64,000 nt of DNA from an uncultured Verrucomicrobiae bacterium (GTDB lineage: Bacteria; Verrucomicrobiota; Verrucomicrobiia; Limisphaerales; UBA11358), in assembly GCA_963789335.1 (NCBI GenBank), contig CAWBKH010000002.1:985355-1049354 (forward strand), in the 5' to 3' direction. Position 1 is the first letter of the stretch, and each line of letters starts with the position of its first letter. Under the pieces are notes generated by a model. It was not told the origin of the DNA. It ran no database searches and worked only from the letters and a program-made list of their open reading frames with translations. The position numbers were made by a program, and so were the translations under genes. This document shows positions 7,318 through 63,726 of this stretch, one piece after another.

Positions 7318-8799
7318 ATGAACCGCCTTGCCGTTATCAACGTTGTCGGCTTGGTCGAAGCGCTCATCAGCGAACACACGCCGCGCATCGCGGAATTTCG
7401 CCAGCACGGCGCGCTGGCCCAAATCGTGCCGGCATTCCCGGCGGTCACCTGCCCCGCGCAATCGAATTACCTCACCGGCAAATTGCCGTCGCAGCACGGC
7501 GTCGTCGGCAACGGCTGGTACGATCGCGAGCTGTCTGAAGTCCAATTCTGGAAACAATCGAACCATCTGGTGCAAAGCCCAAAAATCTGGGATGAACTCC
7601 GAAAGCAATCTGAATTAGTAAATCGTAAATCATCAATCGTAAATCTGTTCTGGTGGTTCAACATGTATTCGAGCGTGGATTATTCCCTCACGCCGCGCCC
7701 GATGTATCCTGCCGATGGCCGGAAGGTTTTCGATGTATATTCCCGGCCGTATTCAATTCGCACGGAAATCAAGCGCGACCTCGGCGAATTCCCGTTCTTC
7801 GGTTTCTGGGGCCCAGCGGCAGGGATCAAATCCCCGCAAGGTTCCGCTGATTGCGCGACGCGCTGGATTGCCGAGTCCGCGAAGTGGATTGAAAACAAAT
7901 ATCAACCGACGCTAAACCTGATTTATCTGCCACATCTCGATTACAATTTGCAGCGATATGGACCGTTCGGAGTTCCGCCTTCAGGCGGCAAGGTTGAAGC
8001 GCATCCACCCGCGAACCGCCTGAAGGCGGAACTCCAAACCAAAATCAATCCCGCCATCATTCCTGACCTGCACGCGATTGATGCCATCGTCGGCGACCTG
8101 ATTAATTTCTTCAACAAATGCGGCGTGCAAGTCGTGTTGCTCTCCGAATACGGCATCACGAACGTGGACACGCCGGTTCATCTCAACCGGATTTTCCGCG
8201 AGCAAGGCTGGCTGGCGGTGAAGGATGAACTCGGCCTGGAAATTCTCGACGCAGGCGCAAGCAAGGTTTTCGCCGTAACGGATCATCAGGTTGCACATAT
8301 TTACCTCAATGATGCGTCGCTGGAAAAATCTGTGCGCGAACTGCTGGAGAAGACCGAAGGCGTGGAAAGCGTTTTAGGCAAAACGGAAAAAATCACGGCG
8401 GGTATTGACCATCCGCGCGCCGGTGATTTGATGGTCGTGGCGAAGGAAAACGCGTGGTTCACCTATTATTACTGGCTGGACAACGTCCGCGCGCCGGATT
8501 TCGCGCGGACGGTGGACATCCACCGCAAGCCGGGCTTCGACCCGGTGGAACTGTTTCTCGACCCGACGATTCCGCTGCCGAAATTGAAAATCGCCTGGCG
8601 CTTGCTGCAAAAGAAACTTGGTTTCCGAATGTTGATGGACGTGGTCCCGCTCGACGCAACGCTCGTGAAAGGCTCGCACGGCCGGCGACCGATGGACAAA
8701 ATAGACTGGCCGGTGTTCATTACAGAACGACCGGAAACGTTGGACACAAAGCAGATTGAATCAACGGATGTGTTTCACGTCTTACAGCAGCATCTTTAA
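7318..8799 (+). CDS. alkaline-phosphatase-superfamily enzyme (nucleotide pyrophosphatase/phosphodiesterase-like)
   Basis: N-terminal VINVVGL...P, FPAVTCPAQSNYLTGKLPSQHGVVGNGW (metal/nucleophile-region motif of type I phosphodiesterase/NPP) and SEYG. The ATG at 7318 follows the upstream stop (TGATATG). Confidence 0.7.
   Translation: MNRLAVINVVGLVEALISEHTPRIAEFRQHGALAQIVPAFPAVTCPAQSNYLTGKLPSQHGVVGNGWYDRELSEVQFWKQSNHLVQSPKIWDELRKQSELVNRKSSIVNLFWWFNMYSSVDYSLTPRPMYPADGRKVFDVYSRPYSIRTEIKRDLGEFPFFGFWGPAAGIKSPQGSADCATRWIAESAKWIENKYQPTLNLIYLPHLDYNLQRYGPFGVPPSGGKVEAHPPANRLKAELQTKINPAIIPDLHAIDAIVGDLINFFNKCGVQVVLLSEYGITNVDTPVHLNRIFREQGWLAVKDELGLEILDAGASKVFAVTDHQVAHIYLNDASLEKSVRELLEKTEGVESVLGKTEKITAGIDHPRAGDLMVVAKENAWFTYYYWLDNVRAPDFARTVDIHRKPGFDPVELFLDPTIPLPKLKIAWRLLQKKLGFRMLMDVVPLDATLVKGSHGRRPMDKIDWPVFITERPETLDTKQIESTDVFHVLQQHL
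7604..7645 (+). repeat. tandem heptamer array (GCAATCT GAATTAG TAAATCG TAAATCA TCAATCG TAAATCT) inside the phosphatase CDS
   Basis: Period-7 repetition read directly; it is translated as ...QSELVNRKSSIVN... Confidence 0.7.
7969..8035. repeat. palindromic element: GGAGTTCCGCCTTCAGGCGG - 27 nt - CCGCCTGAAGGCGGAACTCC, inside the CDS
   Basis: Perfect 20-bp inverted repeat read directly; translated in-frame as GVPPSGGKVEAHPPANRLKAEL. Confidence 0.85.
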
Positions 8800-12110: not shown

Positions 12111-13829
12111 TTATGACGGCGACTCAACTGCCTCCTCGTTCGGTTCTTCAGGCGGCGTAACGAGGGATTCGGCCGGGGCGGGTTCGGCCGCCGCAATGGA
12201 TTCTGCGGTTGGCGACGGAGCCTCGGCTGGCGCTTGAATTTCCGGCGCAGGTTCGGGCGGCGTTTGAACTTCCGTGCCCGGCACAACGGTGGTCTCAGCT
12301 TGCCGTCCAAGCTCCGTTGCCGACGCGGTTTCAGCTTCGGCCGCCGTTTTTTTCTCCGGTTTCGGCGGCCGGGGCGCGGGTTTCTTGGCGGTTTCCAGCC
12401 GCCCGTCGGCGAACTCAATGACGTGGCCTTGATGCACCAGCCAGTGCAAATCGGCGATGATGGCGTTTTGCTCCGCTGTCGGTTCGGCGGTTGGAGTGCC
12501 GCTCTTAGGCGGTTCTTGGGCACCGACCGCCTGAAGGCGGGACTCCGAACCCGGTGCCTCCGCTTCAGGTTTGATTTCGATAACCGCCGGCTGCGGCGTC
12601 GGCGCGAGCGTTTCGATCAACTGCCGCCGGCTGCATTTCGGATGCGCGTTAACGTGGGCGATGATGCGCTTGATGCTTTCCGACACCGGCGTGGTTTCGA
12701 GGTCGAGAAACTGCGGGCGCGCGACGGAAACGTGGGTGAAAGTCTTGTTGACCTTGAAAAACTGCAGGCCATGCGTGGCCAGTTGCCGGCTGAGTTCGGT
12801 GGCCAGTTGCAGCGGAAAATGTCTTTGCTGCTCCCATTCCATGCGCACCAACCGTTGCAATTCGCGGCTGCGCAAATTGCGGCTCGGCACGCCGACGACC
12901 GTGTGCGACTCGACGGATTTGATGATCGTCTCCTTGTGGACGGCGCGGAAATGTTTTCCCACCTCTTCCAGACTCGGCAGTTTGAGCGGTTCGGGCACAT
13001 TAAGCACCACGTATTCGGTCTTGAAACTCTGTTCCTCGACCCACTTCTTGACGACCGCCTCGTCCTTCACGATTTTCACGCGCGCCTTGAAGGCGTCGAA
13101 CGGCATTCGGGCGAACCGCTCGACGTGCAATTTGCGCAACCGGTTCTGGTAATCGTGATGGTTCGGCGGGCCGAGAATCACGCCGCTCATGCCGCATTGT
13201 GCGACAAACGTGTAGGTGCCCTTCGGCGGCTCGGTGGCCGTGCGTTCGGCCTGATAAAACGTGGTGAAATGGCTTTTCAGGACGTGCGCCACTGCCTCGT
13301 CCTCGCTCAGCCACGGCGTGTCGTCGAGCGCACACACAAACAGCGGTTGCGCAACGGCGCCTTCGGGCTTTTTCTTCACCGCCAACCGGACGGCATAGCG
13401 TTCCGGCTTTTGCAAAACGAGCTGGGCAATCTGGAAAAGCGGATACGCCCGTCCGGTCATCTTGATCTGGCGCGCGAGCGATTCAACGCCCCTCTCGTCC
13501 GGCAGAAAAACCACGGCGATTTCCGGCAGCGGCGCAGGCGGTTCGCGGTGTTCGCGTTCGCTCCGGTCATCGCGCCGGTCGAAACCCCTTTTACGATCGC
13601 GGTCGCCAGATTTCGGGCCGGAGCGCGGCGGACGGGGACCGCGACGTTCGCCGAATGATTCACCGCGCGGCTCTCCGCGACGGCCTTCACGCCGGCGATC
13701 GCCGCGTTCCGCTGGCTCGCCGGCAAACTTTTCGTAGCGATTGGCCTCCGGCTTTTCTTGAGCCCACGCGGGCTGGAACAAATTTTCCAGATCCAAATCC
13801 ATGTCGGGAATGCTGCTCATGGGAAACAA
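12111..13829 (-). CDS. hypothetical protein with Arg-rich N-terminal and Pro/Ala/Glu-rich C-terminal low-complexity regions
   Basis: 572-aa ORF. The N-terminus reads RGDRRREGRRGEPRGESFGERRGPRPP...DRDRKRGFDRRDDRSEREHRE. The central roughly 330 aa are non-repetitive. It sits between recA and the DEAD-box helicase on the same strand. Confidence 0.7.
   Translation of the reverse strand: MFPMSSIPDMDLDLENLFQPAWAQEKPEANRYEKFAGEPAERGDRRREGRRGEPRGESFGERRGPRPPRSGPKSGDRDRKRGFDRRDDRSEREHREPPAPLPEIAVVFLPDERGVESLARQIKMTGRAYPLFQIAQLVLQKPERYAVRLAVKKKPEGAVAQPLFVCALDDTPWLSEDEAVAHVLKSHFTTFYQAERTATEPPKGTYTFVAQCGMSGVILGPPNHHDYQNRLRKLHVERFARMPFDAFKARVKIVKDEAVVKKWVEEQSFKTEYVVLNVPEPLKLPSLEEVGKHFRAVHKETIIKSVESHTVVGVPSRNLRSRELQRLVRMEWEQQRHFPLQLATELSRQLATHGLQFFKVNKTFTHVSVARPQFLDLETTPVSESIKRIIAHVNAHPKCSRRQLIETLAPTPQPAVIEIKPEAEAPGSESRLQAVGAQEPPKSGTPTAEPTAEQNAIIADLHWLVHQGHVIEFADGRLETAKKPAPRPPKPEKKTAAEAETASATELGRQAETTVVPGTEVQTPPEPAPEIQAPAEAPSPTAESIAAAEPAPAESLVTPPEEPNEEAVESPS
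12493..12546. repeat. palindromic element GGAGTGCCGCTCTTAGGCGG - 14 nt - CCGCCTGAAGGCGGGACTCC inside the CDS
   Basis: Same arm sequences as 7969-8035; translated on the minus strand as ESRLQAVGAQEPPKSGTP. Confidence 0.8.
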
Positions 13830-17242: not shown

Positions 17243-18565
17243 ATGGTTCACATCGAATCGGAAAAACTATTTGCCGAGGCACTAAAATTCATTCCCGGCG
17301 GCGTGAACTCACCGGTGCGCGCCTTTCGCGCCGTCGGCGGCCAGCCGTTCTTTGTCAATGAAGCCAAGGGCGCGCACGTCTGGGACGTGGACGGCAACGA
17401 ATATATTGATTACGTCTGCACCTGGGGCCCGGCGATTCTCGGCCACGCGCATCCGAAAATCGTTTCCGCCGTCAAAGCCGCCGCCGACCGCGGCACGAGC
17501 TTCGGCATTCCCAATCCATTTGAAGTGACGATGGCAAGGCTGATTTGCTCACTCGTGCCGAGCGTGCAAAAGGTGCGCATGACCAATTCCGGCACCGAGG
17601 CGTGCATGAGCGCCATCCGCCTCGCGCGCGGTTTTACCCGCCGCGACAAAATCATCAAGTTCGACGGCTGTTATCACGGCCACGCGGATTCGCTGCTCGT
17701 CAAAGCCGGCTCCGGCGCGCTGACGTTTGGTAATCCCGACAGCGCGGGCGTGCCGGCGGCGTTCACGCAGCACACCATCGTTTTGCCGTTCAACGATATT
17801 GACGCAGTGAAGGCCGTGTTCGATGCGAATAAAAATCAAATCGCTGGAATCATTGTCGAGCCGGTGCCGGGCAATGCCGGAGTTTATCTGCCAAAACCGG
17901 GCTACTTGGAATTTCTCGGTGAAATCACCAGTGCCAACGGCGCGCTGTTAATTTTCGATGAGGTAATGACGGGCTTCCGGCTTGCGCCCGGCGGCGCGCA
18001 GGAACGATTCGGGATCGCGCCGGATTTGACGTGCTTCGGTAAAATCATCGGCGGTGGCCTGCCGGTGGGCGCGTTTGGCGGGCGCGCGGACATCATGGAT
18101 TTGCTCGCGCCGCTGGGACCGGTTTATCAAGCCGGCACGTTAAGCGGCAATCCACTCGCGATGGCAGCGGGCATCGCGGCGTTGGAGGAACTGAACGTTG
18201 GTAGGGACGCTGCGCTGCGGCGTCCGGACAGCGCAGCACGCTGTCCCTACCAACAGCTTGAAGAACTCGGCGCGCAACTGGAAGCCGGCCTGAAAGACGC
18301 CGCGAAGGCCGCAAACGTTCCGGTCCAATTTAACCGCTGCGGTTCGATGTTTTGCGCATACTTTACGAGCGAGCCGGTTCACAATCTGGCCGATGCGATG
18401 AAAAGCGACCGTGCGCGGTTCGCCAAATTCTTTCATGGGATGGTTGATGCAGGTGTTTACCTCGCGCCATCGCAATTCGAGGCCGGCTTTATTTCCACCG
18501 CCCATGCAGAGACGGACATTGATCAAACGGTGAAAGCAGCGGCCACCGTTTTGCGGAGGCTGTAA
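17243..18565 (+). CDS. hemL: glutamate-1-semialdehyde 2,1-aminomutase
   Basis: Class III aminotransferase motifs, [13 protein letters not shown], and FDEVMTGFR...FGKIIGGG with the PLP lysine context. Confidence 0.95.
18200..18251 (+). repeat. 52-nt palindromic element GGTAGGGAC...GTCCCTACC inside hemL
   Basis: Terminal 9-bp inverted repeat plus inner GCTGCGCTG/CAGCGCAGC stem. 43/52 nt are identical, without gaps, to 62589-62640. Confidence 0.85.
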
Positions 18566-19412: not shown

Positions 19413-19489
19413 GCGCGCGTAGCTCAATTGGATAGAGCGTCGGCCTCCGGAGCCGAAGGTTGTGGGTTCGACCCCCGCCGCGCGTACCA
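19413..19489 (+). tRNA. tRNA-Arg (anticodon CCG), CCA encoded
   Basis: Manual cloverleaf: acceptor GCGCGCG/CGCGCGT, D arm GCTC-AATTGGATA-GAGC, anticodon arm TCGGC-CTCCGGA-GCCGA, variable loop AGGTT, T arm GTGGG-TTCGACC-CCCGC, discriminator A, then CCA. Confidence 0.9.
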
Positions 19490-38043: not shown

Positions 38044-38054
38044 ATTCAATCTTC

Positions 38055-38078
38055 GTAGCAGCCGCCGTGAGTCGGCTC
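38055..38078 (+). repeat. REP-like unit GTAGCAGCCGCCGTGAGTCGGCTC
   Basis: GTAG followed by an AGCCG/CGGCT hairpin. One of four related copies in the window. Confidence 0.75.
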
Positions 38079-38084
38079 TGAATT

Positions 38085-38150
38085 TTGTAGGAGTCGAGGT
38101 AACGAGACTGATTTTTGAAAGTCAGAGACTCCTTACGTCGTCTCCTACAA
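38085..38150. repeat. 66-nt imperfect palindrome bounded by TTGTAGGAG ... CTCCTACAA
   Basis: Terminal 9-bp perfect inverted repeat; the inner arms are partially complementary. Confidence 0.7.
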
Positions 38151-38260
38151 TCCGCCTGCATCCGCTTTCATGCGATTTCAGCGCGACCAGTCTGATTTCC
38201 GTCATCGCCCAGCCTCGTGCGTAAGCCACGCGACCCGTCACCCCTGCGGCATTCGGATTT
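38151..38260 (+). repeat. direct-repeat unit F1 (TCCGCCTGCATC...), with a 30-nt insertion relative to F2
   Basis: About 85% identity (hand count: 10 mismatches in 68 nt) to 38486-38565 outside the insertion. Confidence 0.75.
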
Positions 38261-38289
38261 CGATCGGTTCACCACTTCCCTCATCCCGG

Positions 38290-38415
38290 CCTTCTCCCCA
38301 AGGAGAAGGAGAATCCTCCGCCGTCTGCTTGAAAATTCGTGTGGCTGGTTTTGCCGGACGACCATCCGCCAAACCAGAACCGGACGCCTGCTATTTTCTC
38401 TCCTGGGGGAGAGGA
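38290..38415. repeat. hairpin-rich composite element (TCTCCCCAAGGAGA ... CTGGTTT-N19-AAACCAG ... TCTCCTGGGGGAGA)
   Basis: Two self-complementary end modules in inverted orientation flank an inner 7-bp stem. Confidence 0.6.
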
Positions 38416-38485
38416 AACAGGTGAGGGCGAGCGTCAAAACAAAATTCATTCCGACAATCGTTCATCCCAAAATGAAGAGTTCCCG

Positions 38486-38565
38486 TCCGCCTGCATCTGA
38501 TTTCCGTCTTCGCCAAGCTTCGTGCGTGAGCCACGCGTCCCGTTGCCCCTGCGGAATACGGCTTT
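38486..38565 (+). repeat. direct-repeat unit F2
   Basis: See 38151-38260. Confidence 0.75.
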
Positions 38566-38597
38566 GGCGTGCGCGGACATATCCGCTTTCATTTTGC

Positions 38598-38672
38598 GTA
38601 GCAGCGGATGTGAGTCCGCTCCATCTAAAAATCACCCCGCAAAATAATGAGCCGACTCACGTCGGCTGCTAC
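38598..38672. repeat. REPIN-like doublet: GTAGCAGCGGATGTGAGTCCGCTC (+) - 27 nt - inverted GTAGCAGCCGACGTGAGTCGGCTC (-)
   Basis: Two 24-nt GTAG-hairpin units in inverted orientation, ending 3 nt from the manA stop. Confidence 0.75.
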
Positions 38673-38675
38673 ATT

Positions 38676-44130: not shown

Positions 44131-44204
44131 CGGGATTTGTGATATACGATTTACCAACCGCTTGCCGGTTTGCGCGTAAATCGTAAATCGGAAATCGTGA
44201 ATCA
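44131..44204. repeat. nested hairpin filling the purS-purQ spacer: inverted heptamer arrays (..TACGATTTA / TAAATCG TAAATCG GAAATCG TGAATCA) around a GC-rich mini-hairpin AACCG-CTTGC-CGGTT
   Basis: Read directly. 19/23 identity between the reverse complement of the left arm and the right arm. Confidence 0.7.
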
Positions 44205-52649: not shown

Positions 52650-52786
52650 GACGTGAAACATCGAACATCAAACATCGAACACCTGCCGCGACGGTGCGCG
52701 AGCACGGCGAGTCAAACGCCGAATGAAGCTGGCGCTCGCCACATTTTCGTTCGATGTTCGGTGTTCGATGTCCGGTGTTCGATGTT
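52650..52786. repeat. inverted pair of heptamer arrays (AACATCG x4 at 52657-52684; CGATGTT/CGGTGTT x5 at 52752-52786) around a ~60-nt GC-rich spacer
   Basis: Read directly. The arms are complementary over about 28 nt with 3 mismatches, one of which is G-U compatible. Confidence 0.8.
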
Positions 52787-60199: not shown

Positions 60200-61954
60200 G
60201 TGACGAAAAAACATTCCAGTGGCCGCCCGCTGCGCGTCGGCCTGATTTCGCTCGGCTGCGCCAAAAATCTCGTGGACGCCGAAATCATGCTCGGTTCGCT
60301 CCTTAAAAGCGGCGTGGAAATCACCAATGACGCCGCGCAGGCCGACGCCGTCATCGTCAACACCTGCTCGTTCATTGACTTTGCGCAGGAGGAGAGCGTG
60401 GACACCATCCTCGAATCCGCCGAGGTTCGCGAAGCGAAAAATCGCGGCCAAAGCCTGATTGTTTCCGGCTGCCTGCCGCAGCGGTTCCGCGACGAATTGC
60501 CAAAACTCCTGCCCGAAGTGGATGCGTTCATGGGCATTGACCAGGTCGCGCAGGTTTCGGAAATTGTCCGCAAGGCTGTGGCAAGTCGGGCAGCAAAAAT
60601 CGAGAAACATCGAACAGCAAACATTGAACGCCGAAAATCCAAGGAAAAAATCACCGGCCAGTTTGCAGAATTGGAGAAAAGCCGCACTGCCGGCGAACGT
60701 GAAAAATCCGAGTCCGTTCGCGGCGCGGAAAAATTTGGCAAAACAAAAACTGTTGTGGCTCCGTCCTCAACTCTCGACCCTCGGTCCTCGACCATTCTGA
60801 ATGTCACCCAACGCCCGACGTTCATCCCCGACTTTGCCACGCCGCGCTTCCGACTGACGCCGAGACATTTCGCCTACGTCAAAATCGCCGAGGGCTGCAA
60901 CCATCCGTGCAGCTTTTGCATCATCCCGCGGATGCGCGGTTCGCATCGCAGCCGGCAACAAACGGACATTGTGGCCGAAGCGAAGGCGTTGATTGCTGAT
61001 GGCGTGAAGGAAATCAATCTGATTTCACAGGACTCGACTTACTACGGATTGGATTTGCGCCCAAACCAATCGCGCGCGATTTCGTCACCGGAGAAATTTT
61101 CCGCCGCGGCCAAATCGCTTGCCGCCGATGCCACGACCATTTGCACACTGCTGCGTGAATTGAATGCGCTGCCCGGCGATTTCTGGATTCGCCTGCTGTA
61201 CACGCATCCGGCGCATTGGACGGATGAACTCATCCAGACCATCGCCGAATGCCCGAAGGTGGCGCGCTACGTGGACATTCCGCTCCAGCACATCCAGGAA
61301 AACATGCTCGAACGGATGCGCCGCGAAACTTCACAACAATACATCGTGGATTTAATTAAGAAAATCCGCGCAGGCGTGCCGGGCATCGCGCTGCGGACGA
61401 CCTTCATCGTCGGTTTTCCCGGTGAAACTGAGGCGAGCTTCAACACGCTCCTCGATTTCATCTGCGGAACAAAATTCGAGCGGCTCGGCGTGTTTACTTA
61501 TTCCAAGGAAGACGGTACCCGCGCCGGCGCCATGGCCGGGCACATTCCCGATAAAATCAAAAAACACCGACGCGAACTCGCCATGGCCGAGCAGCACAAA
61601 ATCGCCCGGCAGATTTCTGAATCCTTCGTCGGCCGCGAAATCAAAGTGCTCATCGAAGGCAAGGCGGACGCAAAACAACTGCAAACCGCGAACGTCAGTT
61701 CCTGGGAACACGGCTTCGTCCGCGAATCCGAAACTCTCAACCCTCAATTTTCAACCCTCAACTATTTGATTGGCCGCAGCGAGGCAGATGCGCCGGACAT
61801 TGACGGTCGGGTTTATGTTCGCGGCGAACTTCCGATTGGCGAATTTGCCCGTGTCAAAATCGTCGGCCACACCGATTACGATTTGATGGCCGAAACAACA
61901 AGAATTGGCGAAACAAGTTCGACCGACATGACAAATCGAGGCAAGTCCAGATGA
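60200..61954 (+). CDS. rimO: ribosomal protein S12 methylthiotransferase RimO (with repeat-derived insertions)
   Basis: LGCAKNLVDAEIMLG, radical-SAM CNHPCSFCIIP, and TRAM-like C-terminus ...GRSEADAPDIDGRVYV. GTG start. Confidence 0.85.
   Translation: MTKKHSSGRPLRVGLISLGCAKNLVDAEIMLGSLLKSGVEITNDAAQADAVIVNTCSFIDFAQEESVDTILESAEVREAKNRGQSLIVSGCLPQRFRDELPKLLPEVDAFMGIDQVAQVSEIVRKAVASRAAKIEKHRTANIERRKSKEKITGQFAELEKSRTAGEREKSESVRGAEKFGKTKTVVAPSSTLDPRSSTILNVTQRPTFIPDFATPRFRLTPRHFAYVKIAEGCNHPCSFCIIPRMRGSHRSRQQTDIVAEAKALIADGVKEINLISQDSTYYGLDLRPNQSRAISSPEKFSAAAKSLAADATTICTLLRELNALPGDFWIRLLYTHPAHWTDELIQTIAECPKVARYVDIPLQHIQENMLERMRRETSQQYIVDLIKKIRAGVPGIALRTTFIVGFPGETEASFNTLLDFICGTKFERLGVFTYSKEDGTRAGAMAGHIPDKIKKHRRELAMAEQHKIARQISESFVGREIKVLIEGKADAKQLQTANVSSWEHGFVRESETLNPQFSTLNYLIGRSEADAPDIDGRVYVRGELPIGEFARVKIVGHTDYDLMAETTRIGETSSTDMTNRGKSR
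60606..60640 (+). repeat. heptamer array AACATCG AACAGCA AACATTG AACGCCG AAAATCC inside rimO
   Basis: Same unit and same translated frame (KHRTANIER) as the intergenic array at 52657-52684 (KHRTSNIEH). Confidence 0.75.
60759..60793 (+). repeat. heptamer array CTCCGTC CTCAACT CTCGACC CTCGGTC CTCGACC inside rimO
   Basis: Period-7 repetition read directly; translated as APSSTLDPRSST. Confidence 0.75.
61736..61763 (+). repeat. heptamer array CTCAACC CTCAATT TTCAACC CTCAACT inside rimO
   Basis: Period-7 repetition read directly; translated as TLNPQFSTLN. Confidence 0.75.
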
Positions 61955-63396
61955 GCAAACCGCCAAAATCGCAATGGGACTTCGGCGAATTGTTTCCGAC
62001 GGAAGCAACGCGGAAAGTTTTGTCGGTCTCGGAATTGACGGCACAGGTCAAGCAGCTGCTGGAAAAACAGGTTGGCTCGGTGTGGGTGAGCGGTGAGATC
62101 ACCAATTTGCGGACGCAATCTTCGGGGCACCTGTATTTCACGCTCAAAGACGCCGGAGCGCAGTTGAGTTGCGTGCTGTTCCGGGGCGAGGCGGTCAGGA
62201 ACCGCAGCGTGTTGCAGGACGGCCAGAAGGTTCTCCTGCAAGGCGACGTGACGGTTTATGAAGCGCGCGGACAATATCAGCTCATCGTGCGCGCGGTGGA
62301 GTTGCAGGGTGTGGGCGCGCTGCAAATCGCCTTTGAGAAGCTCAAACAAAAGCTCGCGGCGGAAGGATTGTTTGCAACGGAACAGAAACGTCCGTTGCCT
62401 GAATATCCACAACGCGTCGGCCTAGTGACGTCGCCCACCGGCGCGGCGATTCGCGATGTGCTGCATGTCCTGCAACGGCGGAATCCGGCGCTGGAAATCA
62501 TTCTTGCGCCGTGCCGCGTGCAAGGCGACGGCGCGGCGGAGGAAATCGCAGCCGCCATCCGGCTGCTGAATGAGTGGCATGCATCACAGGTAGGGTCGTC
62601 GCGCTGCAACGACCGGACGGCGCAGCGCGCCGTCCCTACCGAAAATGGATTGGACTTGATTTTAGTAACTCGCGGCGGTGGCTCGCTGGAGGATTTATGG
62701 GCGTTCAACGAAGAAGCCGTGGCGCGGGCGATTTTTGAATCGGCAGTTCCGGTGATGTCGGCGGTAGGACACGAGATTGATTTTACCGTCAGCGACTTTG
62801 TCGCGGACGTCCGAGCTGCCACGCCGAGCGCCGCCGCGGAAATCATCACCGAGGGCGTGTTCGCCAGCCGTGAGTTTGTGGCCGAAGCGCCGGGCCTGCT
62901 GCGGCGAAGGGTCCGCCAACGGCTGGAAAGTGCCACCGCGGAATTCGAGCAACTCAAAGCGCGCTTGACCCGATCCCATCCGCGTCGGCAGTTGAATGAA
63001 TTTCTGCAACGGCTGGACGACCTGCAAAACGGTTTGCTGCGCTGTGCGAAGCAGGGAACAAAAGAACGGCAGGTAGCTTGGCACAATCTGGCAACGCGGC
63101 TCCTGCGTGTGCGTCCGACGCAGTTGTTGAAGCAGCGGCAAGAACTTTTGAAAACGAGCCGGCATCGGTTGCGGGAGCTGGCGTTGGTTAGCCTGCGGAA
63201 TTGGCGGAATCGTTTTGGTGCAACGGAAGCCAAATTGCGTTTGCTCAGTCCGGGGCAGGTTTTAGCGCGTGGTTATTCCATCACCACGGACGCCGCAACC
63301 GGAACGGTTTTGCGCGAGGCTGCTGAAGTGGAAACCGGTCAGCGTTTGAAAACGCGGCTAAAAACTGGCGAAATCTTCAGCCGGACCGAGAAGTGA
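61951..63396 (+). CDS. xseA: exodeoxyribonuclease VII large subunit
   Basis: [10 protein letters not shown]...GHLYFTLKD (OB fold) and [16 protein letters not shown]. ATGA overlap with rimO. Confidence 0.9.
   Translation: [481 protein letters not shown]
62589..62640 (+). repeat. 52-nt palindromic element GGTAGGGTC...GTCCCTACC inside xseA
   Basis: 43/52 identical to 18200-18251. It is translated in a different frame ([17 protein letters not shown]). Confidence 0.85.
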
Positions 63397-63462: not shown

Positions 63463-63726
63463 ATGTCAAAATCAGCCAAGGCCGACACGGTCAAGGGCAG
63501 CCTTCCGTTTGAAGAGGCCTTGAAGAAACTGGAAGGCATCGTTGAGGCGATGGAGTCCGAGGATTTGCCGCTCGAAGCCTTGCTGGCCCAATATGAAGAA
63601 GGCACCCGGCTCGTGAAAATCTGCCAGGAAAAACTGGCCGAGGCGGAATTGAAGATCCGGCAGTTGGAGAAGAACGCCGCCGGCGAAATGAAATTAAAAT
63701 CCTTTGAAGAAAACGCGAATGCGTGA
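63463..63726 (+). CDS. xseB: exodeoxyribonuclease VII small subunit
   Basis: LPFEEALKKLEGIVEAMESEDLPLEALLAQYEEGTRLVKICQEKL. ATG 63463 is preferred over the ORF-track start at 63406. Confidence 0.9.
   Translation: MSKSAKADTVKGSLPFEEALKKLEGIVEAMESEDLPLEALLAQYEEGTRLVKICQEKLAEAELKIRQLEKNAAGEMKLKSFEENANA

What the first reader, a model, noticed from the sequence alone, without database searches (positions are those of the whole stretch)
62589..62640. Second copy of the 52-nt element, inserted in xseA in a different reading frame
Seen: GGTAGGGTCGTCGCGCTGCAACGACCGGACGGCGCAGCGCGCCGTCCCTACC is the same length and orientation as the hemL copy, with 9 substitutions. It is read one frame over, as [19 protein letters not shown].

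The segment lies just before the conserved (T/G)RGGGS(L/I)EDLW motif. E. coli XseA (from memory ...[22 protein letters not shown]) has a much shorter linker there.

Inference: the element is open in at least two frames. That is what one expects of a repeat which persists inside genes.
Basis: partly seen in the sequence, partly recalled or inferred. Interest (0 to 1): 0.6.

Follow-up and report, generated by a model that had tools for sequence, protein, structure and literature searches.

The report
REP doublet (REPIN) inside xseA
The 52-base element in xseA is a copy of a small mobile palindromic repeat (two GTAG-tagged REP hairpins, with its own RAYT transposase in related genomes) read through as 17 extra amino acids in a tolerant loop of the enzyme; this behaviour is already documented in Verrucomicrobia.

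Summary
The quoted 52-mer is at 62589-62640 inside xseA (61951-63396). It differs at 9 of 52 positions from a copy in hemL (18200-18251) and is read one frame over.

It is a doublet of two GTAG-tagged REP hairpins placed tail to tail (a REPIN). A public-genome scan found at least 119 loci, almost all in Verrucomicrobiota MAGs. Across 73 distinct copies the two-hairpin fold is 97.8% paired, with 149 compensatory cells. A single long hairpin does no better than shuffles.

In five related genomes a REP-associated tyrosine transposase (NCBIfam NF047646, above cut-off) is flanked by the same repeat. At least 37 of 125 copies lie in frame inside long ORFs; all 20 tested have Pfam domains.

The XseA insert is absent from E. 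coli and from basal verrucomicrobial XseA. Close relatives carry about nine different repeat types at the same site, and the HemL loop behaves the same way.

Being open in 4 of 6 frames is expected from GC content alone. Intragenic GTAG REP dimers in Verrucomicrobia were described by Di Nocera et al. 2013.

Verdict: a new member of a known kind, of modest interest.

The parts
62589..62640 (+). The 52-nt REP doublet (REPIN) inside xseA, translated as [17 protein letters not shown]
   Evidence: Exact match. It belongs to a family found at 119 or more loci in public genomes. It differs by one base (A at 62608, element position 20, which breaks pair 12-20) from the form found in L128 and L210 xseA and in other genes.
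62589..62593 (+). Left tag GGTAG (contains the GTAG tetranucleotide), which pairs with the right tag
   Evidence: Invariant in all copies, but this was forced by the search pattern. The TAG within it closes the third reading frame.
62594..62614 (+). REP hairpin 1 (GGTCGTCGC GCT GCAACGACC)
   Evidence: Nine-bp stem; 7 of its 9 pairs show changes on both sides across 73 distinct copies; 98.3% of cells are paired.
62615..62635 (+). REP hairpin 2 (GGACGGCGC AGC GCGCCGTCC)
   Evidence: Nine-bp stem; 5 of its 9 pairs show changes on both sides; 96.0% of cells are paired. The RNA fold of the region gives -38.4 kcal/mol, z = -4.4.
62636..62640 (+). Right tag CTACC (complement of GGTAG)
61951..63396 (+). 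xseA (exodeoxyribonuclease VII large subunit), the host gene; the insert occupies residues about 213-229
   Evidence: Pfam Exonuc_VII_L 6e-100 plus OB folds. Match to PDB 8TXR at 2.6e-96, with the alignment split at the insert.
18200..18251 (+). Sister copy of the doublet inside hemL, read as [17 protein letters not shown]
   Evidence: The hemL loop is equally variable among orthologues.
17243..18565 (+). hemL (glutamate-1-semialdehyde 2,1-aminomutase), host of the sister copy
   Evidence: Pfam Aminotran_3 2e-77; orthologues are named hemL by their sources.
63463..63726 (+). xseB (ExoVII small subunit), downstream context only
   Evidence: Pfam Exonuc_VII_S 9e-20. The order rimO-like, xseA, xseB, dxs is conserved in L003.

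Best explanation
The element is a REPIN: two GTAG-tagged REP hairpins placed tail to tail (GGTAG, hairpin, hairpin, CTACC). It belongs to a family spread through soil and freshwater Verrucomicrobiota.

Such elements are non-autonomous. The proposed mechanism (inferred) is that a single-copy HUH/Y1 enzyme, a REP-associated tyrosine transposase (RAYT), recognises the GTAG tag plus hairpin in single-stranded DNA and mobilises the doublet in trans.

One copy came to lie in the short surface linker of XseA, between the helix ending ...LLNEW and the strand [12 protein letters not shown]. It may have arrived by transposition, or by recombination with an allele that already carried it. There it adds 17 codons without a stop. 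It persists because that loop tolerates almost any insert.

What stays conserved afterwards is the DNA or RNA hairpin pair, not the peptide.

Shown here: family membership, hairpin covariation, RAYT linkage in related genomes, in-frame residence in many real genes, and orthologous retention.

Inferred: mobilisation by the RAYT, neutrality for ExoVII function, and the presence of a RAYT in the source genome.
For: Architecture. Both window copies fold as an outer stem plus two 9-bp hairpins, with z-scores of -4.4 to -5.7.

Family size. They contain 125 copies, 105 of them exactly 52 nt.

Covariation. On 73 distinct 52-mers the two-hairpin model is 97.8% paired, against 87.4% in shuffles. Twelve pairs and 149 cells change on both sides, and 0 of 500 shuffles reach this. 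The single long hairpin gives 81.8%, against 82.8% in shuffles.

Transposase. In L083 two identical copies flank an ORF with the HUH motif (PDHIHLL) and the tyrosine motif (YILDNPVRAGLV). It hits Pfam Y1_Tnp at 28 bits (cut-off 23) and NCBIfam NF047646 REP-associated tyrosine transposase at 99.8 bits; the L022 gene scores 104.7 (cut-off 80). All five RAYT loci examined (L083, L022, L207-L209) have same-family REPs on both sides. L207-L209 share the gene order DoxX, DLH, RAYT, peptidase S46, and L083 and L022 have an orthologous gene ending ...WKKLLKQL directly upstream of the RAYT (domain not tested).

Intragenic census. 37 of 125 copies lie at least 50 codons deep in ORFs of 200 aa or more. 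All 20 tested have Pfam domains: LeuRS, PolA, MutS, AroA, IlvD, GlmS, RNase R, GcvP, DNA ligase, RibD and others.

Conservation. Orthologous copies are 92.6% identical, against 81.3% for the +/-150-nt flanks; the element is the more conserved in 24 of 25 pairs. Among xseA copies 7 of 8 substitutions are non-synonymous, and they fall in loops, are compensatory, or break a pair.

Literature. [quoted passage not shown]
Against: The source genome could not be reached: the window's XseA is not on record in the contig index. So neither its copy number nor its RAYT was checked. The window holds only two copies and no RAYT homologue.

No empty/filled pair was found, so the inserted length (51 or 54 nt) and the target site are undefined. 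The flanks show only A or T at position -1 (107 of 124 copies) and no target-site duplication.

No transposition has been demonstrated for this family.

The invariance of the tags and of the central CCGGAC was imposed by the search pattern.

Element conservation above that of the flanks could also come from gene conversion or from a host-level function.
Confidence: 0.85

Rival explanations
1. The intragenic hairpin pair is kept because it serves the host at the RNA or DNA level. It could pause ribosomes between XseA domains, stabilise or process the mRNA, or bind gyrase or IHF as E. coli REPs do. On this reading its REP ancestry is incidental.
For: Orthologous copies are more conserved than their coding flanks in 24 of 25 pairs. 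Some changes are compensatory, for example pair 13-19 GC to CG in L005, and TCATC/GATGA against TCGTC/GACGA in L009 and L094. The predicted folds are very stable, -38 to -44 kcal/mol.
Against: Close relatives carry unrelated repeats, heptamer arrays or nothing at the same site, so no particular structure is required. Copies decay: GTAG has become GCAG in L001, a 21-nt internal deletion is seen in L001 glmS, and the window copy has a broken pair. Hosts of intragenic copies are functionally unrelated.
Confidence: 0.1
2. The inserted residues are a selected protein module, a linker or interaction peptide acquired by XseA. On this reading the DNA repeat is secondary.
For: The peptide [17 protein letters not shown] is nearly invariant in 18 XseA orthologues that are otherwise 75-87% identical.
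Against: The same DNA is read in a different frame in hemL and in 17 other genes, as GRDxALRRPDxAARRPY. 88 of 125 copies are not in long ORFs. 7 of 8 substitutions in xseA copies are non-synonymous. Distant XseA lack the residues. Relatives as close as 3-4% amino-acid divergence outside the linker carry a completely different insert class.
Confidence: 0.03
3. The variety of inserts at this site does not come from repeated transposition. A few old linker alleles are instead moved among strains by homologous recombination, and the window's copy arrived as part of such a tract.
For: L210 (this element) and L211 (a different repeat) are 95% identical over xseA. Blocks away from the linker are mostly 92-100% identical (the first 100 nt 87%), the four blocks within about 200 nt of it 76-94%, and the linker block 45%. 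Insert classes are scattered over the XseA tree. Same-class frequency falls from 0.97 below 3% divergence to 0.23 at 3-6%.
Against: This concerns how the allele reached this genome, not what the element is, so it is compatible with the main explanation. Each allele still needs an original insertion. Nested and composite inserts (P0042 in XseA; P0207 and P0239 in HemL) show that new events happen in place.
Confidence: 0.4

Closest known systems
GTAG-tagged REP families of Opitutus terrae (GTAG-17 to GTAG-20), Di Nocera, De Gregorio and Rocco 2013, BMC Genomics 14:522 (PMC3733652)
   Same: Same phylum. A GTAG tag followed by a 6-9 bp stem. Dimers whose partners are only 1-2 bp apart. About 70 supplement rows list intragenic REPs in O. 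terrae, many as dimers encoding 15-30 residues, and often in replication or repair genes. The TAG of the tag supplies stop codons. GTAG is degenerated to GTGG in some copies, as in L022.
   Different: The hairpin sequence differs: the O. terrae peptides are VGPALAAG, GTGVPPV and GRDARAT, not [10 protein letters not shown] or VGSSRCDD. xseA and hemL are not on their list. That paper notes different REPs at about the same recB site in two Xanthomonas species, but not a whole clade with nine insert types in one loop.
REPIN-RAYT systems (Bertels and Rainey 2011, PLoS Genet, PMC3116915; Bertels et al. 2017, PMC5581495)
   Same: Two inverted REPs form the unit. A single-copy RAYT is flanked by its own REPs. 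In L207-L209 the RAYT sits in the same gene neighbourhood in different genomes, which fits vertical inheritance.
   Different: The classical REPINs of Pseudomonas are about 70-110 nt with a spacer and are extragenic. Here the two hairpins abut, giving 52 nt, and at least 30% of sampled copies are inside genes. Spacer-containing versions do occur next to the RAYT (L207, L209).
E. coli REP/BIME with TnpA-REP (RayT) (Ton-Hoang 2012; Messing 2012, PMC3479197; Corneloup 2021, PMC8266576)
   Same: GTAG plus an imperfect palindrome, recognised and cleaved as single-stranded DNA by an HUH/Y1 enzyme. The RAYT here passes the same NCBIfam equivalog model.
   Different: No biochemistry exists for the verrucomicrobial enzyme, and the E. 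coli REPs are extragenic.
Rickettsia palindromic elements (RPE; Ogata et al. 2000 Science, cited from my own knowledge; discussed in PMC3733652)
   Same: Palindromic repeats inserted in frame in housekeeping genes, tolerated in surface loops, and later decaying.
   Different: RPE-1 is 100-150 bp. The short RPEs carry a CGTC tag, not GTAG, and have no known dedicated transposase. There is no sequence relation.

Membership tests
GTAG-tagged REP / REPIN | A short G+C-rich hairpin preceded by a conserved GTAG tetranucleotide | tested here: met
   GGTAG plus a 9-bp stem with a 3-nt loop, on each strand. The conservation of the tag itself was imposed by the search pattern.
GTAG-tagged REP / REPIN | Two REPs in inverted orientation form the repeated unit, and each hairpin evolves as its own helix | tested here: met
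   The two-hairpin model is 97.8% paired, with 149 double-change cells and 0 of 500 shuffles reaching this. The single long hairpin gives 81.8%, no better than shuffles at 82.8%.
GTAG-tagged REP / REPIN | Many dispersed copies per genome | tested here: inconclusive
The window has 2 copies in 64 kb. The source genome could not be fetched.
GTAG-tagged REP / REPIN | A cognate RAYT gene flanked by the same REPs | tested here: met
   Met in 5 of 5 related genomes examined: L083, L022 and L207-L209. Not testable for the source genome; there is no RAYT in the window.
GTAG-tagged REP / REPIN | Most copies lie outside genes (the 'extragenic' in the name) | tested here: met
   88 of 125 sampled copies are not inside long ORFs. 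The xseA and hemL copies are intragenic exceptions of a type already recorded for GTAG REPs.
GTAG-tagged REP / REPIN | Mobilisation (cleavage and transposition) by the RAYT | not testable with these tools
   This needs biochemistry, or detection of new insertions in populations.
RAYT (REP-associated tyrosine transposase), for the linked gene | HUH and catalytic Tyr motifs, and a score above the curated family cut-off | tested here: met
   PDHIHLL and YILDNPVRAGLV motifs. NF047646 scores 99.8 and 104.7 bits against a cut-off of 80. The IS200 model scores only 22.6 and 17.9 against a cut-off of 55.
RAYT (REP-associated tyrosine transposase), for the linked gene | Same chromosomal neighbourhood across genomes | tested here: met
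   DoxX, DLH, RAYT, peptidase S46 in L207-L209. In L083 and L022 an orthologous gene ending ...WKKLLKQL lies directly upstream of the RAYT; its DLH domain was not tested. Copy number per genome was not measured.
Classical MITE | Terminal inverted repeats plus a target-site duplication | tested here: not met
   No direct repeat flanks the copies: 66 of 124 have none and 43 have 1 nt, which is chance level.
Rickettsia palindromic elements | RPE consensus, with a CGTC tag in the short RPEs | tested here: not met
   The tag here is GTAG and the hairpins are unrelated. RPE tags are as described in PMC3733652. The two behave alike but are not the same family.
Described RNA family (Rfam) | A match at the gathering score | tested here: not met
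   Only a tRNA was found in the window, at 19413-19486.

The most novel reading that the evidence does not exclude
In this verrucomicrobial clade, tolerant loops of housekeeping enzymes act as landing pads that are almost always occupied. This is seen in the XseA linker and the HemL loop, and probably in the RimO linkers. Occupancy is near saturation, with about nine interchangeable repeat types, including several GTAG REPIN families and heptamer arrays. Some inserts are nested or composite. Together these suggest that resident hairpins attract further insertions, or are replaced, rather than the loops merely filtering random hits. That would make REPIN families compete for fixed intragenic sites, and would make the alleles a recombining hypervariable cassette inside essential genes.
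Probability: 0.25. Interest if true: 0.6.

Novelty: new member of a known kind. Interest (0 to 1): 0.35.

Why it matters
On its own the xseA copy is one more in-frame REP insertion, a phenomenon catalogued in 2013.

It matters a little more for three reasons.

First, it defines a widespread REPIN-RAYT pair in uncultured soil Verrucomicrobiota, including Ca. Udaeobacter. The covariation is unusually clean and the intragenic share is unusually high, at 30% or more of sampled copies. That makes the family a good system for asking how REPINs interact with coding sequence.

Second, annotators and protein modellers should expect 17-residue GRDxALRRPDxAARRPY or [17 protein letters not shown] inserts in many enzymes of this clade, and should treat them as repeat-derived.

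Third, the same loops in XseA and HemL carry many different repeats in near-identical proteins. This gives a natural experiment on insertion targeting against selective filtering against recombination.

Tried and rejected
**Reaching the source genome.** The window's XseA (P0001, on a 2,275,075-bp contig) is not in the contig index and carries no accession. None of the 120 best RAYT homologues sits on a contig of that length.

**RAYT in the window.** tblastn found none. The pair of REPs at 38055 and 38650, about 550 nt apart, flanks only non-coding repeats.

**Single long hairpin.** Rejected on covariation.

**Target motif or duplication.** Only A or T at position -1, and no target-site duplication. 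A relaxed search for the true element ends was uninformative, because the loci had been chosen with the strict pattern.

**Empty-site search.** Joining flanks and searching all loci found only orthologous filled sites or sites filled with something else.

**AlphaFold model of XseA.** The model is poor (mean pLDDT 52.6). The insert falls in a coil with pLDDT below 50, but I do not rely on it. The break in the alignment to PDB 8TXR is the better evidence.

**'Open frames as adaptation'.** Rejected by shuffles.

**'Very fast turnover of inserts'.** This was suggested by different insert classes in proteins only 3-4% diverged. I tempered it after the L210/L211 alignment showed a mosaic pattern that points to recombination.

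**Rfam.** No family matched.

Full report
**Observation**

The quoted 52-mer is at 62589-62640 (+), exactly as written. It is unique at up to 3 mismatches, and none of 100 shuffles matched. The frame GGTAGGG-N38-CCCTACC occurs twice in the window, at 18200-18251 and 62589-62640, where 0.01 is expected. The two copies differ at 9 of 52 positions.

xseA is the ORF 61951..63396 (481 aa; Exonuc_VII_L 6e-100). hemL is 17243..18565. The hemL copy begins at codon position 1 and reads [17 protein letters not shown]. The xseA copy begins at codon position 3 and reads [17 protein letters not shown].

Against the solved E. coli XseA (8TXR) the alignment splits precisely at the insert. Query residues 209-231 face one E. 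coli residue.

Two caveats apply. The element is nearly its own reverse complement, with 9 mismatches direct against 11 inverted. And 52 nt cannot be the net inserted length, because it is not a multiple of 3.

**Anatomy**

Both copies fold into an outer stem (GGTAG/CTACC) that encloses two adjacent 9-bp hairpins, with z-scores of -4.4 to -5.7. Each half is therefore GTAG followed by a hairpin, which is the signature of a REP. The whole is a tail-to-tail REP doublet.

**Family**

Nearly all were Verrucomicrobiota MAGs: Verrucomicrobiae, Ca. Udaeobacter, Chthoniobacterales and Limisphaerales. They hold 125 copies, 105 of them exactly 52 nt.

I compared two structural models on 73 distinct 52-mers.
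- The two-hairpin model pairs 97.8% of cells, against 87.4% in shuffles.
- In that model 12 pairs and 149 cells change on both sides, and 0 of 500 shuffles reach this.
- Sliding the 3' partners by 1-3 columns drops pairing to 33-51%.
- A single long hairpin pairs 81.8%, no better than shuffles at 82.8%, and two of its positions almost never pair.

The tags and the central CCGGAC are invariant only because the search pattern required them.

**Transposase**

In L083 two identical copies, 475 nt apart, flank an ORF with the HUH motif (PDHIHLL) and the tyrosine motif (YILDNPVRAGLV). It passes Pfam Y1_Tnp (28 bits, cut-off 23). It also passes the NCBIfam equivalog for REP-associated tyrosine transposase (99.8 bits, cut-off 80). 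The L022 homologue scores 104.7 bits. Both fail the IS200 model.

L022, L207, L208 and L209 show the same picture, with a same-family REP or doublet on each side of the gene. In L022, L207 and L209 the gene ends in TGG TAG, so the tag's TAG supplies its stop codon. L207-L209 share the gene order DoxX, DLH, RAYT, peptidase S46. L083 and L022 have an orthologous gene ending ...WKKLLKQL directly upstream of the RAYT, though I did not test its domain. The family has 1215 detectable homologues, some named RayT by JGI.

This is the classical REPIN-RAYT arrangement. I could not show a RAYT in the source genome. The window has none and the source contig is not retrievable.

**Copies inside genes**

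Of the 125 copies, 37 lie at least 50 codons deep in open frames of 200 aa or more that have a coding GC profile. They are read either as GRDxALRRPDxAARRPY or as [17 protein letters not shown].

All 20 that I tested have Pfam domains, and in several the element lies inside the domain alignment itself (for example Radical_SAM in L009, ILVD_EDD_N in L030 and Glyco_hydro_3 in L044). They include LeuRS, DNA polymerase I, MutS, AroA, IlvD, GlmS, RNase R, GcvP, an ATP-dependent DNA ligase, RibD and an MqnC-like enzyme.

The element is open in 4 of 6 frames, and the TAG inside GTAG closes the third frame on each strand. This is not a special property: 85-97% of composition-matched shuffles have four or more open frames.

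**What is conserved**

I compared 25 pairs of orthologous copies (the same gene and the same site in different MAGs). The element is 92.6% identical on average, against 81.3% for the +/-150-nt flanks. It is the more conserved in 24 pairs, and the 25th had no usable flank.

Among five xseA copies, L128 and L210 carry the common form. The window copy differs by one base (G to A at 62608, Asp to Asn), which breaks pair 12-20. Seven of the eight substitutions seen are non-synonymous. They lie in loops, are compensatory (pair 13-19, GC to CG), or break pairs.

The constraint therefore acts on the hairpins, not on the peptide. Decay also occurs. GTAG has become GCAG in L001. L001 glmS keeps only a remnant with a 21-nt internal deletion, where L066 glmS has a full copy.

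**The site**

XseA proteins at 40-45% identity have about 5 residues between ...LN.. and (D/E)V(L/I)IV.RGGGS. Basal verrucomicrobial XseA at 55-63% identity have 6-8 unstructured codons. Removing 17 codons from the window's linker leaves HASQENGL, which is 8 residues, the basal length. This fits a 51-nt net insertion but does not prove it.

Among 120 orthologues of 74% identity or more, almost all carry something at this site:
- this element, in 18;
- four to five other palindromic doublets, such as GTAGCAGCGGACG...CGGCTGCTAC, GT(A/C)GCGGCGGTC...GACCGCCGC(T/G)AC and GTAGGACNGGC...GCCTGTCCTAC;
- long inverted repeats;
- tandem heptamers, for example (AACATTC)n, where NLQ against NLQPSTFNLQ is a gain of 3 units.

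Four orthologues have only the minimal linker NLQ (two heptamer units). The DNA of several inserts is shown.

These other families are dispersed repeats too. One of them sits in the window's intergenic region at 38598-38672.

The HemL loop behaves the same way. It holds [53 protein letters not shown], heptamer-encoded SPKSKVQSPKSK, longer inserts and composites. One orthologue has no insert.

**Turnover or recombination?**

Insert classes are scattered over the XseA tree. The chance that two proteins share a class falls from 0.97 below 3% divergence to 0.23 at 3-6%.

The closest pair with different classes for which I obtained DNA is L210 (this element) against L211 (another repeat). It is mosaic. 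In 100-nt blocks, identity away from the linker is mostly 92-100% (87% in the first 100 nt). It is 76-94% in the four blocks within about 200 nt of the linker, and 45% in the linker block itself.

Homologous recombination of linker-bearing tracts therefore explains at least part of the scatter. Nested and composite inserts (P0042, P0207, P0239) show that new events also happen in place.

**Comparison with the literature**

Di Nocera et al. 2013 (PMC3733652) defined GTAG-tagged REP families across phyla. They found them abundant in the verrucomicrobium Opitutus terrae and noted dimers with 1-2 bp spacers. [quoted passage not shown] They also saw different REPs at about the same recB site in two Xanthomonas species.

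Bertels and Rainey defined REPINs and their single-copy, vertically inherited RAYTs.

The present element fits these definitions. Its hairpin sequence, its hosts (xseA, hemL) and the scale of the loop hot spots are not in those lists.

**Verdict**

It is wrong to read meaning into the open frames. The element is a new member of a known kind, and its interest is modest. The most novel reading still open is that these loops are targeted, competitively occupied landing pads.

Noticed in passing
window 38044-38675: An intergenic region packed with other GTAG REP families. There is a full doublet at 38598-38672 (GTAGCAGCGGATGTGAGTCCGCT...AGCCGACTCACGTCGGCTGCTAC) of the family that fills the XseA linker in L006. 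There is a single REP at 38055-38087, and a 70-nt direct repeat at 38191-38260 and 38496-38565. No ORF with a transposase signature lies between them.
   Followed up: partly
window 60587-60648 and 61732-61762 (inside the rimO/miaB-like gene 60200..61954): Heptamer-type tandem arrays lie inside the coding sequence of the gene upstream of xseA. They sit in the 115-residue linker between the UPF0004 and Radical_SAM domains and in the stretch before the TRAM domain. The same kinds of heptamer array fill the XseA linker in relatives.
   Followed up: partly
window 52657-52681 and 52749-52786; 7604-7645; 44176-44203: Further heptamer arrays (AACATCG, GTTCGAT, GTAAATC), partly in inverted pairs. Their genic or intergenic position was not checked.
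   Followed up: no
window 7965-8039 and 12527-12550: Another hairpin repeat, GTTCGGAGTTCCGCCTTCAGGCGG, in three copies, two of which form an inverted pair 27 nt apart.
   Followed up: no
L001 3399-5294 (glmS) versus L066 5070-6983: L066 glmS carries a full copy of the 52-nt element ([18 protein letters not shown]). L001 glmS has a remnant at the same site with a 21-nt internal deletion (AGSSR|RAAPA). Both intragenic copies in the L001 genome have GTAG mutated to GCAG.
   Followed up: partly
L028, L048, L087, L125 (Chloroflexia MAG JBBQZS): Four identical copies share the same frame, GGTAGGG..CCGGAC..CCCTACC, but have A+T-rich hairpins (GTGGGTTTATAACCCAC and GGGTTTGAAACCC). The tag and junction seem to be shared across phyla while the stems differ.
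   Followed up: no
L022 5965-5970; L207 and L209 downstream of the RAYT: The RAYT gene ends in TGG TAG, so the TAG of the downstream REP's GTAG tag serves as its stop codon. In L207 and L209 the downstream doublet has a spacer of about 30-40 nt between the two hairpins instead of none.
   Followed up: partly
L026, L027, L056, L058, L059, L091, L106 (MAGs labelled Acidoferrum, Hyphomicrobiales, Sulfopaludibacter, Bifidobacteriaceae): These MAGs carry elements identical to the verrucomicrobial forms. HemL proteins 86-87% identical to the window's are also labelled Limnocylindrales or Sulfopaludibacter. This is probably mis-binning rather than horizontal spread.
   Followed up: no
L110 5480-5531: A copy identical to the window's xseA copy, including the A at element position 20, sits in a different gene in another MAG. 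That gene is orthologous to the element-bearing genes of L009 (Pfam Radical_SAM + CofH_C, MqnC-like) and L094. This could be a shared subfamily or a parallel mutation.
   Followed up: no
P0042 (XseA); P0207 and P0239 (HemL): These are composite inserts. A second repeat is nested inside the 52-nt element ([28 protein letters not shown]), or two families are fused ([30 protein letters not shown]).
   Followed up: no
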